Source: a virus
Taxonomy: Duplodnaviria; Heunggongvirae; Uroviricota; Caudoviricetes
IMG/VR virus record: IMGVR_UViG_2740892230_000039
Length of the DNA stretch: 3,993 nt
Direction: 5' to 3' (one strand)
Every line of letters starts with the position of its first letter. Within the stretch, counting starts at the first letter, position 1. The translations under genes were made by a program, and so were the position numbers. Shown in pieces: positions 1,668 through 3,251 of this stretch. The notes below the pieces were generated by a model. That model worked only from the letters and a program-made list of their open reading frames with translations. It did not search any database and was not told the origin of the DNA.

Positions 1668-1802
1668 TCATCCACGGCAGTGGAACCACACGTCAAACAT
1701 TCGTTTCACAACTTCACGGCAGTAGAAGCCGTCGACATCACGGGTCAGGTCGTAGCGATTGCCGAATGTCTTGCGAACCCAGAACTCAAAAGCCGTATGC
1801 AT
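1668..1802 (-). CDS. Hypothetical small protein, 44 aa (MHTAFEFWVRKTFGNRYDLTRDVDGFYCREVVKRMFDVWFHCRG); not in the supplied ORF track
   Basis: Hand-translated. ATG at 1802-1800 is preceded by GGAGGTGA with a 3-nt spacer; this Shine-Dalgarno contains the TGA stop of the upstream 80-aa ORF. Its own stop at 1670-1668 lies 18 nt before the xis ATG. Fits the operon-wide tight packing. Confidence 0.35.
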   Translation of the reverse strand: MHTAFEFWVRKTFGNRYDLTRDVDGFYCREVVKRMFDVWFHCRG

Positions 1803-1805
1803 GTA

Positions 1806-2048
1806 TCACCTCCGTTGCATTGCGCGTAATTTTTTCAGGCGCATTTCCTGCTCAGTGCCCGCCAGAATTTTGCGGTACTCCTGTTGGTCAATATGTTCGA
1901 ACAGGTTGTTGAACTCACCAATGCGTACCCGTCCGGAGCGCCCGTCCATGCGTCGAAAGAACACTGAGTGCTGAGTACTGCGAGTAATCACCACAGGGTA
2001 TCCGGCTCTGTCCGTGTATATCTGACCACGTTGAATCAGAGCGAACAT
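1806..2048 (-). CDS. Hypothetical prophage protein, 80 aa
   Basis: Minus-strand ORF co-oriented with int and xis and packed tightly against its neighbours (4 nt after the upstream stop, 3 nt before the downstream start). GGGGA lies upstream of the ATG. No family recognised by eye. Confidence 0.5.
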   Translation of the reverse strand: MFALIQRGQIYTDRAGYPVVITRSTQHSVFFRRMDGRSGRVRIGEFNNLFEHIDQQEYRKILAGTEQEMRLKKLRAMQRR

Positions 2049-2052
2049 TCCT

Positions 2053-2139
2053 TTATCCCCAGCGGAAAAGCGAATACAGAATAAATGCCACCGCTATTGC
2101 AACTCCAACTGCGGTGAATGCTTCAGGCCAATTCATCAT
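2053..2139 (-). CDS. Hypothetical 28-aa hydrophobic peptide (MMNWPEAFTAVGVAIAVAFILYSLFRWG), predicted single transmembrane helix; not in the supplied ORF track
   Basis: Hand-translated. AGGAGGTGA lies immediately upstream. The ATG at 2139-2137 overlaps the TGA stop of the upstream 240-aa ORF (2138-2136) in an ATGA arrangement. A 19-residue uninterrupted hydrophobic stretch is followed by RWG. Stop TAA at 2055-2053, 4 nt before the next start. Confidence 0.35.
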   Translation of the reverse strand: MMNWPEAFTAVGVAIAVAFILYSLFRWG

Positions 2140-2858
2140 TTCACCTCCTGCGGCGGTTCTGGTAGCTGCATCCAGTGGGTTACCTCTTTGAGATACAGGT
2201 CTTCGCCATCACCGTCATCCCAAGTGGGCTTGCCATCATTAAACCAGTCGCCATATACGCCGACCTGAGTGTTGGGGATGTTTGGTGGGTAGTTGTTTTT
2301 AAAGTCAGCTGCTAACACATAGCATTGTCGCTCTCCCATTTCAGGCATTCGCTCACTACAGCTTATCCAACCATCCGGAGTTACCGGATAGTTGCCATTC
2401 ACAAGGTCAGCTCGAACATATAGCGTGTCATCATGGTGTTGATTGTGGCTGCACCACGTTAATTCGCTTAACTNNNNNNNNNNCTCAGGCCACTGGCGCT
2501 CCATGTTGATCTTCAATTTATCTTCCATAGCAGCGGTAATTTCAGCATCGCTGATGCCAGCACGGCGCTGTGCATCCCACAACAGAAACTGCATATCAGC
2601 CCACTCGCTAAGATCGTCTGNNNNNNNNNNCGTTTGCAGCCAGATATGGGCTGGCGCATCTTGGCAAGGTGTATTAACTGGCAACTTGTAAGTTTGGCTT
2701 ACAGGTTCTGCACTATCAGCCTTGCGGCGCTCCTGTAGCTCGCGCAGAGCCGCTACAACATAATGGCTATTGTGCTGGTCAGCCCACAGAATGAGCCGAA
2801 TCAACGTTGCATTTGAAACGTATTCGTCTGTTAGTTTGCTATTGGTAAAAGTGGTCAT
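2136..2858 (-). CDS. Ea22-like prophage protein, 240 aa as translated through two N-runs; C-terminal W/D/G/P-rich region reminiscent of DUF551
   Basis: Minus-strand ORF with AAGGTGA 7 nt upstream of the ATG. The N-terminus MTTFT parallels MTTIT of the upstream paralog. An internal 45-aa module (DDLSEW...ERQWPE) is shared with the upstream gene. The C-terminal region (YPVTPDGWISCSERMPE...GVYGDWFNDGKPTWDDGDGEDLY...WMQLPEPP) matches my recollection of the DUF551 domain found in Ea22-like phage proteins. The true length is uncertain because the ORF is interrupted by N-runs at 2474-2483 and 2621-2630. Confidence 0.55.
   Translation of the reverse strand: MTTFTNSKLTDEYVSNATLIRLILWADQHNSHYVVAALRELQERRKADSAEPVSQTYKLPVNTPCQDAPAHIWLQTXXXXDDLSEWADMQFLLWDAQRRAGISDAEITAAMEDKLKINMERQWPEXXXXLSELTWCSHNQHHDDTLYVRADLVNGNYPVTPDGWISCSERMPEMGERQCYVLAADFKNNYPPNIPNTQVGVYGDWFNDGKPTWDDGDGEDLYLKEVTHWMQLPEPPQEVK
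2474..2483. other. Run of 10 N (gap or masked bases)
   Basis: Directly visible in the sequence. Lies immediately left of repeat copy A. Confidence 1.
2484..2620. repeat. Copy A of a diverged 137-bp direct repeat (coding module), bounded on both sides by 10-N runs
   Basis: Aligns without gaps to 2886-3022, with 131 of 137 positions identical. The six mismatches are at 2484, 2499, 2522, 2550, 2556 and 2586. Confidence 0.95.
2621..2630. other. Run of 10 N (gap or masked bases)
   Basis: Directly visible in the sequence. Lies immediately right of repeat copy A. Confidence 1.
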
Positions 2859-2870
2859 AGCTATTTCACC

Positions 2871-3251
2871 TTAATNNNNNNNNNNTTCAGGCCACTGGCG
2901 TTCCATGTTGATCTTCAATTTATTTTCCATAGCAGCGGTAATTTCAGCATCACTGATACCAGCACGGCGCTGTGCATCCCACAACAGGAACTGCATATCA
3001 GCCCACTCGCTAAGATCGTCTGGTTCGGCTGCGGCTTCCAGTGCCTCTTTTGAGAGGTGTTTCAGTGGACCAATGGGGCCAACGCAGCCAAATGTGGAGT
3101 CAGACCATTTGGCATGCTCGTGGCGAATCTGTTCGCGTTCCAGTGATGCCAGTGCAATTCGTGCCAGTTCCATTTGTTCGCCACGAGTAAGCCCGTTTTC
3201 AAGCGGATTTTTAATGAACAATTCAATACGTTCTTTGGTAATAGTGGTCAT
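2871..3251 (-). CDS. Ea22-like prophage protein, upstream paralog, 126 aa as translated; C-terminus undetermined because the last four codons fall in an N-run
   Basis: The ATG at 3251-3249 overlaps the TGA stop of the upstream 69-aa ORF (ATGA). GAGGA lies 7 nt upstream. The N-terminal part is charged and helical-looking (ERIELF...EQMELARIALASLEREQIRHEHAKW), followed by the shared DDLSEWADMQFLLWDAQRRAGISDAEITAAMENKLKINMERQWPE module. The apparent stop at 2873-2871 comes directly after the 10-N run, so the real end is unknown. Confidence 0.5.
   Translation of the reverse strand: MTTITKERIELFIKNPLENGLTRGEQMELARIALASLEREQIRHEHAKWSDSTFGCVGPIGPLKHLSKEALEAAAEPDDLSEWADMQFLLWDAQRRAGISDAEITAAMENKLKINMERQWPEXXXX
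2876..2885. other. Run of 10 N (gap or masked bases)
   Basis: Directly visible in the sequence. Lies immediately left of repeat copy B, between the two Ea22-like genes. Confidence 1.
2886..3022. repeat. Copy B of the diverged 137-bp direct repeat, preceded by a 10-N run
   Basis: Aligns without gaps to 2484-2620. Corresponding mismatch positions are 2886, 2901, 2924, 2952, 2958 and 2988. Confidence 0.95.

What the first reader, a model, noticed from the sequence alone, without database searches (positions are those of the whole stretch)
2053..2139. Unannotated 28-aa hydrophobic peptide gene translationally coupled to the upstream gene
An ORF absent from the supplied track encodes MMNWPEAFTAVGVAIAVAFILYSLFRWG. 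It has a near-consensus Shine-Dalgarno (AGGAGGTGA) and its start overlaps the upstream stop in an ATGATGA arrangement, a strong signature of a genuinely translated small gene. A 19-residue hydrophobic core with a short basic tail is the architecture of single-pass small membrane proteins, including phage Kil-like or host-membrane-targeting peptides and type I toxin-like peptides. Small membrane peptides in the early-left operon of lambdoid phages are poorly characterised.
Basis: partly seen in the sequence, partly recalled or inferred. Interest (0 to 1): 0.5.

Follow-up and report, generated by a model that had tools for sequence, protein, structure and literature searches.

The report
Conserved 27-residue phage membrane peptide gene
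The flagged ORF is a real, protein-level-conserved small gene that encodes a roughly 27-residue single-helix membrane peptide; it occurs in prophages of about a third of complete E. coli genomes, standard annotation skips it, and its function is unknown.

Summary
Window 2053-2139 (-) is an intact ORF, preceded by AGGAGG, whose start overlaps the stop of the upstream DUF551-type gene.

It belongs to a family of about 40 distinct peptides. Their consensus is M-[TSN]-WPEAF-x3-G-x-A-x-A-x-A-x3-YS-I-C-RWG, and the length is almost always 27 aa.

The evidence for a self-contained coding module is:
- Members follow at least five unrelated upstream genes, always with an ATGA overlap.
- Downstream contexts are unrelated: DUF4222, hok/sok, terminator hairpins, or convergent toxin-antitoxin genes.
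- Identity is box-shaped: about 0.33 in the flanks, 0.62 over the Shine-Dalgarno region and 0.80 in the ORF.
- Third codon positions vary most. pN/pS is 0.32-0.41, against 0.67 to 2.0 in the other forward frames.
- A relative in 27-28% GC environmental DNA keeps 18 of 26 residues, half of them through different codons.

The family start corresponds to the second ATG (2136), giving 27 aa. The peptide is one hydrophobic helix bracketed by invariant Trp residues.

No Pfam, NCBIfam, PHROG, PADLOC, PDB or Rfam match was found, and no paper mentions it. A few GenBank records call it "hypothetical protein".

The function is untested. The Kil-like and type I toxin labels are not supported as family memberships.

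Verdict: a genuine uncharacterised small membrane protein, of moderate interest.

The parts
2053..2136 (-). Small gene in its family-conserved form: 27 codons plus TAA, encoding MNWPEAFTAVGVAIAVAFILYSLFRWG.
   Evidence: The start aligns with the ATG of all relatives. pN/pS is 0.32. Conservation is box-like.
2137..2139 (-). Extra upstream in-frame ATG, specific to this variant. It forms ATGA with the upstream stop and lies only 4 nt after GGAGG.
   Evidence: Other family members have TCA here (GGAGGTGAATCAATGA).
2144..2149 (-). Shine-Dalgarno AGGAGG, embedded in the last codons (Q-E-V) of the upstream gene. It is 7 nt from the family start codon.
   Evidence: GGAGG or GGAGGA is retained in front of the sORF behind unrelated upstream genes. 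The -18..-1 region is 0.62 identical, against 0.31-0.37 further upstream.
2136..2138 (-). TGA stop of the upstream gene, overlapping the sORF start region. This is a termination-reinitiation arrangement.
   Evidence: The upstream CDS ends 4 nt into the sORF in every annotated relative.
2065..2121 (-). Predicted transmembrane core, residues 6-24 (AFTAVGVAIAVAFILYSLF). It includes the nearly invariant G11-x-A13-x-A15-x-A17 motif and is bracketed by invariant W3 and W26.
   Evidence: Kyte-Doolittle mean is 2.28 over 19 residues, and a Hessa-type sum is -0.86.
2136..2858 (-). Upstream gene of 240 aa, containing N-masked runs. It is a mosaic of an N-terminal segment, a dATP/dGTP pyrophosphohydrolase fragment and DUF551. 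It provides the translational coupling, but is not a conserved partner of the sORF.
   Evidence: Pfam and PHROGs. Relatives sit behind at least five different upstream genes.
1806..2048 (-). Downstream DUF4222 gene (80 aa), starting 4 nt after the sORF stop. It is one of several alternative downstream neighbours.
   Evidence: Pfam. Downstream contexts are listed.

Best explanation
This is a self-contained small protein gene, consisting of a Shine-Dalgarno plus 27 codons. It encodes a bitopic inner-membrane micro-protein.

Expression (inferred). The gene lies in the leftward early operon of a lambdoid Stx-type prophage, upstream of DUF4222, xis and int on the same strand. It has no promoter of its own. 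It would therefore be transcribed with the early-left genes after infection or induction. Ribosomes would load either at its own strong Shine-Dalgarno or by reinitiation at the overlapping stop/start of whichever gene lies upstream.

Product (inferred from sequence). Almost the whole peptide is one transmembrane helix.
- Invariant W3-P4 and W26 sit 23 residues apart, about one bilayer thickness.
- E5 at the N-terminus and R25 at the C-terminus weakly favour an N-out/C-in orientation.
- The nearly invariant mid-helix G11-x-A13-x-A15-x-A17 forms two interleaved small-xxx-small packing motifs.

Mechanism (least secure step). I infer that the peptide works inside the membrane by packing against another transmembrane helix. 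That helix could be its own, giving an oligomer, or more likely one belonging to a host inner-membrane protein. It would then modulate that target during early lytic development, in the way that small membrane regulators such as KdpF, AcrZ and MgtS act on larger complexes.

Shown: the gene is real, is conserved at the protein level, moves as a module, and encodes a hydrophobic helix.
Inferred: the timing of expression, the topology, the helix-helix mode of action, and the existence of a host target.
For: Coding:
- Codon-position identity among 53 representatives sharing less than 90% identity is 0.84, 0.90 and 0.66.
- pN/pS is 0.32 over the whole ORF. It is 0.41 in codons 7-24, which the search pattern did not constrain, against 0.67 and 1.78 in the other two forward frames.
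- No antisense ORF spans the region.
- The AT-rich relatives L299 and L302 (27-28% GC) keep 18 of 26 residues, 9 of them with different codons. Identity by codon position is 17/26, 24/26 and 11/26.

Unbiased anchoring: among loci fetched through the neighbouring DUF4222 gene, 77 of 78 carry an intact sORF.

Module behaviour:
- At least five unrelated upstream C-termini occur, all with an ATGA overlap and a retained GGAGG.
- There are more than seven downstream contexts, including terminators and convergent genes.
- Identity falls to about 0.33 immediately after the stop codon.

Membrane helix:
- Kyte-Doolittle mean is 2.1-2.6 over 19 residues in the five representative peptides scored.
- Substitutions are almost all hydrophobic-for-hydrophobic, and G11, A15, A17, Y21, C24, R25 and W26 are near-invariant.

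Abundance: at least 1740 of 5426 complete E. coli genomes carry it, with up to 8 copies per genome. It also occurs on plasmids and in the virulent phage Av-05.

Not an RNA element: no Rfam hit, no promoter or terminator, and the fold z-score is +1.28.

Comparators KdpF, AcrZ and MgtS are taken from PMC12648545.
Against: - There is no direct evidence of translation. The Sakai Ribo-seq study only considered ORFs of at least 30 aa and sampled uninduced cells, and the peptide is absent from its supplements.
- The helical moment of conservation is not significant (p=0.16), so a single conserved interaction face is not demonstrated.
- The Hessa-type insertion energy is only borderline for several members (median -0.15, and 15 of 38 are above 0).
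- The sequence sets were partly gathered with protein- or pattern-based searches, which inflates apparent conservation at codons 1-6 and 25-26.
- A few copies are broken: a TAG in POCJ13, and 1-nt indels in vB_EcoS-689R5 and L298.
- No partner protein is identified.
Confidence: 0.8

Rival explanations
1. It is a membrane-damaging host-killing peptide, in the manner of a type I toxin, a holin or Kil. Once the early-left operon is expressed, the peptide oligomerises in the inner membrane, dissipates the proton-motive force, and so arrests host growth or division.
For: - Its size and single-helix architecture match small membrane toxins (19-60 aa, one TM helix, short extensions; PMC12648545).
- The small-xxx-small motifs would allow self-association.
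- Its strong Shine-Dalgarno suggests high expression.
- In 933W-type phages it sits next to hok/sok.
Against: - The helix has no charged or strongly polar lining residues.
- There is no antisense promoter-like site, and no conserved flanking DNA that could encode an antitoxin RNA.
- It has no promoter or structured leader of its own.
- There is no Pfam hit to Hok/Gef or Lambda Kil and no PADLOC hit.
- The hok/sok adjacency is only one of more than seven downstream contexts.
Confidence: 0.15
2. The act of translating the ORF matters, not the peptide. On this view the sORF is a coupling or spacer cistron that keeps ribosomes on the early-left mRNA. This would prevent Rho termination or help translation of the next gene.
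For: - It shows ATGA coupling to the upstream gene, and only a 4-nt gap before DUF4222 in this window.
- Translation-dependent polarity control is well established in operons (own knowledge).
Against: - The amino-acid sequence is itself conserved, with pN/pS of 0.32-0.41, invariant W, P, G, R and W residues, and retention across a shift from 48% to 28% GC.
- Many copies are the last gene before a terminator hairpin or a convergent gene, so there is nothing downstream to couple to.
Confidence: 0.04
3. It is not a gene at all. On this view the ORF is a chance reading frame within DNA conserved for a nucleic-acid-level reason, such as an RNA element or a recombination site.
For: The ORF is very short, and most annotation pipelines omit it.
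Against: - Variation concentrates at third codon positions in exactly one frame.
- The conserved block ends at the stop codon.
- There is no Rfam hit, and the RNA folds no better than shuffled sequence (z = +1.28).
- The AT-rich homologue shares the peptide but has only 11 of 26 identical third positions.
Confidence: 0.01

Closest known systems
Small single-pass membrane regulators of E. coli: KdpF (29 aa), AcrZ (49 aa), MgtS (31 aa)
   Same: The size class is the same. The peptide is essentially one transmembrane helix with extensions of only a few residues. The presumed mode of action is also the same: intramembrane binding to a larger membrane protein (PMC12648545).
   Different: There is no sequence relationship. 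The only hint is a compositional 14.7-bit match to the KdpF model, well below its 26.85-bit cut-off. This peptide is phage-borne rather than chromosomal, is translationally coupled within an early phage operon, and has no known partner.
Type I toxin membrane peptides: Hok/Gef, TisB, IbsC, ShoB, DinQ
   Same: These are also short hydrophobic peptides with a single helix, and they are often carried on prophages. In 933W-type phages a hok/sok locus lies directly downstream of the sORF.
   Different: No antisense RNA partner, dedicated promoter or leader is detectable. No Hok/Gef Pfam match was found. The helix lacks the polar or charged positions typical of pore-forming toxins such as TisB (own knowledge).
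Lambda Kil and other early-left host-killing proteins (Kil, KilR, DicB)
   Same: They share the genomic neighbourhood and timing, being early-left operon genes of lambdoid phages, and they are small.
   Different: Kil is a 47-aa soluble FtsZ antagonist (own knowledge), not a transmembrane helix. No Pfam hit to it was found. The exo-xis literature I read does not mention any membrane peptide.
Phage morons and accessory mini-modules
   Same: The sORF moves as a discrete unit with sharp boundaries between unrelated neighbours. It occurs in temperate phages, phage-plasmids and a virulent phage.
   Different: Classical morons carry their own promoter and terminator. This module carries only a Shine-Dalgarno and depends on the host operon for transcription.

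Membership tests
Type I toxin-antitoxin system | A small hydrophobic toxin peptide with one transmembrane helix | tested here: met
   Kyte-Doolittle mean is 2.28 over 19 residues, in a peptide of 27-28 aa.
Type I toxin-antitoxin system | A cis- or trans-encoded antisense RNA antitoxin at the locus | tested here: not met
   No promoter-like site occurs on either strand in 1600-2900. No Rfam family matches. The flanks are unconserved (0.31-0.37 identity), so no conserved antisense gene accompanies the ORF. The promoter scan is consensus-based, so this is negative evidence rather than proof.
Type I toxin-antitoxin system | Its own promoter and a structured leader that sequesters the Shine-Dalgarno | tested here: not met
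   The Shine-Dalgarno lies inside the coding sequence of whichever gene is upstream, and the start overlaps that gene's stop. The local RNA folds no better than shuffled sequence.
Type I toxin-antitoxin system | Growth arrest or membrane depolarisation on expression | not testable with these tools
   This needs inducible expression and membrane-potential assays.
Hok/Gef family | Sequence match to the Hok/Gef profile | tested here: not met
   A Pfam scan at E<=10 returns only sub-threshold compositional hits (DUF883_C, B12D, PTR2) and no Hok/Gef.
Lambda Kil family | Sequence match to a Kil profile, and a soluble FtsZ-binding protein of about 47 aa | tested here: not met
   No Pfam, PHROG or NCBIfam hit to Kil was found. 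The peptide is almost entirely a hydrophobic helix. The properties of Kil are from my own knowledge.
Small membrane-protein regulators (a functional class, not a homology family) | At most 50 aa with a single transmembrane helix | tested here: met
Small membrane-protein regulators (a functional class, not a homology family) | Physical association with a larger membrane protein whose activity it changes | not testable with these tools
   No partner is identifiable from sequence. The conserved GxAxAxA motif is only suggestive.
DUF551 (the name attached to some fragment records of this peptide in GenBank) | Contains the DUF551 domain | tested here: not met
   DUF551 maps to residues 163-237 of the upstream protein, in another frame. 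The peptide itself has no DUF551 hit. The "DUF551, partial" names on P0003 and P0016 belong to contig-edge fragments read in the sORF frame.

The most novel reading that the evidence does not exclude
The peptide may be a phage-borne modulator of a broadly conserved inner-membrane machine, such as an insertase, a protease, a transporter used for DNA entry, or a membrane-bound defence effector. This would explain why nearly the same 26 residues persist in E. coli Stx phages, phage-plasmids, a virulent Vequintavirinae phage and a 27-28% GC environmental element. It would be a new class of early phage host-takeover or anti-defence micro-protein acting purely through transmembrane helix packing.
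Probability: 0.2. Interest if true: 0.65.

Novelty: new member of a known kind. Interest (0 to 1): 0.4.

Why it matters
Small membrane proteins are systematically missed by annotation. This one is in roughly a third of complete E. coli genomes, often in several copies, and it is in the medically important Stx1 and Stx2 converting phages. It lies in the exo-xis/ea region, which is known to influence the lysis-lysogeny decision and prophage induction.

Its sharp module boundaries, strong ribosome-binding site and strict length make it an easy, well-defined target for genetics. In most family members a single G-to-A change in the ATGA kills the start codon while keeping the upstream stop; this window, which has two ATGs, needs the change in both.

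If it modulates a host membrane protein, it would add a phage example to a class so far known mostly from chromosomal genes. If it has no detectable phenotype, it is still a clean annotation correction for thousands of genomes.

Tried and rejected
- The search for homologous proteins refuses queries shorter than 40 aa. A 43-aa window translation returned only two fragment records.
- HMMER against 1.84 billion representative proteins gave 12 hits. Eleven belong to this family or are over-extended calls of it; the twelfth (P0047, 855 aa) was not retrieved. No distant relatives appeared.
- The exact-sequence clusters appeared to link the peptide to 121- and 185-aa DUF551 proteins. I checked for a DUF551-peptide fusion, but those proteins end at ...QEVNQ and do not contain the peptide, so the link is a clustering artefact.
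- A profile search against PDB sequences found nothing.
- PHROGs gave only weak hits, the best being phrog_4612 at E=0.0011 for 13 of 28 members, with unknown function.
- PADLOC found nothing.
- The literature yielded nothing. The string WPEAF occurs in no biology paper in the library. The peptide is absent from the supplements of the Sakai and EDL933 Ribo-seq papers and of Pro-SMP finder. The CFT073 small-proteome preprint could not be opened. An exo-xis modelling paper mentions no membrane peptide.
A degenerate DNA pattern restricted to AGR-Arg codons found one further AT-rich relative.
- A conserved-face test (helical moment of conservation) was not significant.
- I considered a frameshift fusion of the upstream protein to the peptide. 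The sORF frame is closed a few codons upstream in 933W-type contexts, so I rejected it as a general mechanism.
- I considered a lipoprotein signal peptide because of the conserved Cys24. I rejected it because YSIC is not a lipobox and the window variant has Phe at that position.
- Structure prediction was not attempted, because the peptide is below the 30-aa minimum.

Full report
**What is in the window.** All recognisable genes lie on the minus strand. They form the left end of a lambdoid early-left operon.
- An integrase is at 75-1361 and an excisionase at 1395-1649.
- A 44-aa gene (phrog_3871) is at 1668-1802.
- A DUF4222 gene is at 1806-2048.
- The flagged ORF is at 2053-2139.
- A 240-aa mosaic gene is at 2136-2858. 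It combines a dATP/dGTP pyrophosphohydrolase fragment with DUF551.
- Further "ea"-type genes lie upstream.

The DNA is 92-99% identical to BP-4795, YYZ-2008, VT1-Sakai and a series of Stx1a phages.

The ORF reads MMNWPEAFTAVGVAIAVAFILYSLFRWG.
- AGGAGG is at 2149-2144.
- The upstream TGA stop is at 2138-2136.
- There are two consecutive ATGs, at 2139 and 2136.
- Of 76 mechanical ORFs of at least 20 aa in the window, this is the only one with both a transmembrane-grade hydrophobic stretch and a strong Shine-Dalgarno.
- The 87-nt gap it fills is left empty in RefSeq phage records and in PGAP-annotated E. coli genomes.

**It is a conserved family.** tblastn against phage records found identical copies, and also 48-70% identical ones. 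These occur in 933W, ArgO145, Stx2a_WGPS2, PhiR12 and PhiR49, in partial lambdoid genomes, and in the virulent Vequintavirinae phage Av-05. IMG/VR scans added many more.

In total I collected about 40 distinct peptides and 68 distinct 27-codon nucleotide sequences.
- Length is almost always 27 aa.
- M1, W3, P4, A6, R25 and W26 are invariant, although this is partly imposed by my search pattern.
- G11, A15, A17, Y21, C24 and G27 are nearly invariant and were not imposed.
- The remaining substitutions are hydrophobic-for-hydrophobic.

In all relatives the start codon aligns with the window's second ATG, 7 nt after GGAGG. The likely product here is therefore 27 aa. The extra ATG is a peculiarity of this variant, which has AAATGATGA where the others have AATCAATGA.

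**Selection acts on the protein.**
- Variation is concentrated at third codon positions. Mean pairwise identity is 0.84, 0.90 and 0.66 for positions 1, 2 and 3.
- pN/pS is 0.32 over the whole ORF. It is 0.41 for codons 7-24, which my search pattern did not constrain. The other two forward frames give 0.67 and 1.78 over that core, and 1.04 and 1.97 over the whole ORF.
- The one reverse frame with a similar ratio shares wobble positions, and it is interrupted by stops.

Because those sets were gathered by peptide or pattern, I also anchored on the neighbouring DUF4222 gene. Of 78 such loci, 77 carry an intact sORF. The exception has a 1-nt insertion in a G run.

The strongest single item comes from two metagenomic contigs of 27-28% GC, L299 and L302. 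They encode MNITNWPEAFTY[IV]GCAFAIAIIFYSMFRWG.
- 18 of 26 residues are identical to the window peptide, 9 of them through different codons.
- Identity by codon position is 17/26, 24/26 and 11/26.

**It moves as a module.**
- The upstream gene differs between copies. It can be a DUF551 protein, a truncated DUF551 variant, or a 114-aa, 156-aa, 167-aa or 220-aa protein without a Pfam domain. The ATGA overlap and a GGAGG-type Shine-Dalgarno are present in every case.
- Downstream lies DUF4222, a 77-aa gene, the hok/sok locus, terminator-like hairpins, or convergent toxin-antitoxin or KilA-N genes.
- Mean pairwise identity is 0.31-0.37 in the upstream flank, 0.62 over the 18 nt holding the Shine-Dalgarno and 0.80 in the ORF. 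It drops to 0.33 immediately after the stop.

This pattern rules out a mere coupling device for a particular downstream gene. It also leaves no conserved space for an accompanying antisense RNA gene.

**RNA-level alternatives fail.** There is no Rfam match at E<=1. There is no promoter-like or terminator-like site in 1600-2900. The local RNA folds no better than shuffled sequence, with z = +1.28.

**The product.** A 19-residue window has a Kyte-Doolittle mean of 2.1-2.6 in the five representative peptides scored.

W3 and W26 lie 23 residues apart, about the span of a bilayer. The only charged residues are E/D5 and R25, which weakly favours an N-out/C-in orientation.

The mid-helix G11-x-A13-x-A15-x-A17 forms two interleaved small-xxx-small motifs. 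From general knowledge, such motifs mediate tight helix-helix packing. A single conserved face was not statistically demonstrable (p=0.16).

**Is it known?**
- No curated family matches in Pfam, NCBIfam, PHROGs or PADLOC, and no solved structure matches.
- HMMER against 1.84 billion representative proteins returned 12 hits. Eleven belong to this family or are over-extended calls of it; the twelfth (P0047, 855 aa) was not retrieved.
- Exact look-up shows that some GenBank submissions did call it, unnamed, as "hypothetical protein", "bacteriophage protein" or "Prophage protein".
- Full-text search found no paper containing the motif. The EHEC Ribo-seq surveys either excluded ORFs under 30 aa or do not list it. 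The exo-xis literature does not mention a membrane peptide.

**Distribution.** At least 1740 of 5426 complete E. coli genomes carry a family member, with up to 8 copies per genome, and 164 of the matching places are on plasmids. One-genome-per-species scanning found it only in Escherichia and Shigella, plus two tiny contigs that are probably contaminants. The AT-rich relatives lie next to a protein-kinase-like gene whose homologues occur in Desulfobacterales and other environmental bacteria.

**Interpretation.**
- Shown: this is a genuine, mobile, protein-level-conserved small gene encoding a hydrophobic helix.
- Inferred: it is expressed with the early-left operon by coupling or through its own Shine-Dalgarno, it inserts in the inner membrane, and it acts by helix packing with a partner.

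The toxin reading remains possible, but it lacks the defining features of type I systems. Homology to Kil or Hok is not supported.

I rate this a new, uncharacterised member of the known class of small phage and bacterial membrane proteins. It is well worth annotating and testing, but not categorically new.

Noticed in passing
window 2460-2620 and 2862-3022 (N runs at 2474-2483, 2621-2630 and 2876-2885): There is a 161-nt direct repeat at 93% identity. It duplicates the C-terminal part of the dATP/dGTP pyrophosphohydrolase domain. Each copy contains one 10-N masked run near its start, and a third run directly follows the first copy. As a result, the 240-aa gene upstream of the sORF is a mosaic of an N-terminal segment, a PPHyd fragment and DUF551. 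A separate 126-aa PPHyd gene lies at 2871-3251.
   Followed up: partly
L004 (933W) 1578-1750; L098 and L090 downstream of the sORF: In 933W-type phages the sORF stop is followed directly by the hokW/sokW locus. Promoter-like hexamers (TTGCGG ... TAGAAT) and the conserved hok mRNA 5' end begin within about 50 nt of the stop.
   Followed up: partly
L098 (ON470583.1) 1499-1609; L096 (POCJ13) about 1501-1581; L298: Some copies are broken. vB_EcoS-689R5 has a 1-nt deletion, and GenBank annotates the wrong frame there as a 36-aa protein (URC08898.1). Shigella phage POCJ13 has TGG changed to TAG. One IMG/VR locus has a 1-nt insertion in a G run. These could be pseudogenes or sequencing errors.
   Followed up: partly
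L299 3001-3093 (ENA ERZ27247121 k141_117111); L302 2129-2221 (Ga0180007_10069133): Relatives of the peptide occur in DNA of 27-28% GC. L299 has no nucleotide match to any deposited phage. In L299 the sORF follows a PP2C-like gene, a 549-aa protein-kinase-like gene and two small genes. The kinase has hundreds of homologues in environmental bacteria such as Desulfobacterales. The host and the nature of the element are unknown.
   Followed up: partly
L163, minus strand (IMGVR_UViG_3300020202_000070, 72% GC): A look-alike peptide, MNWPEAAVACTAIAAFAFIVYAWWRWGPEL, lies in a high-GC viral contig. It has a possible GTG start 6 codons upstream and a GTGA overlap with the next gene. Whether this is homology or chance is unresolved.
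   Followed up: no
window 1668-1802 (-): A 44-aa gene between DUF4222 and xis matches phrog_3871 at E=1.5e-31. It is annotated as hypothetical in RefSeq. It is another conserved micro-gene of unknown function in the same operon.
   Followed up: no
protein clusters (P0003, P0016, P0040): Contig-edge fragments of the sORF frame are named "DUF551 domain-containing protein, partial" in NCBI records. The 90%-identity clusters also lump the 27-aa peptide with full-length DUF551 proteins that do not contain it. This is a naming and clustering artefact that could mislead automated annotation.
   Followed up: yes
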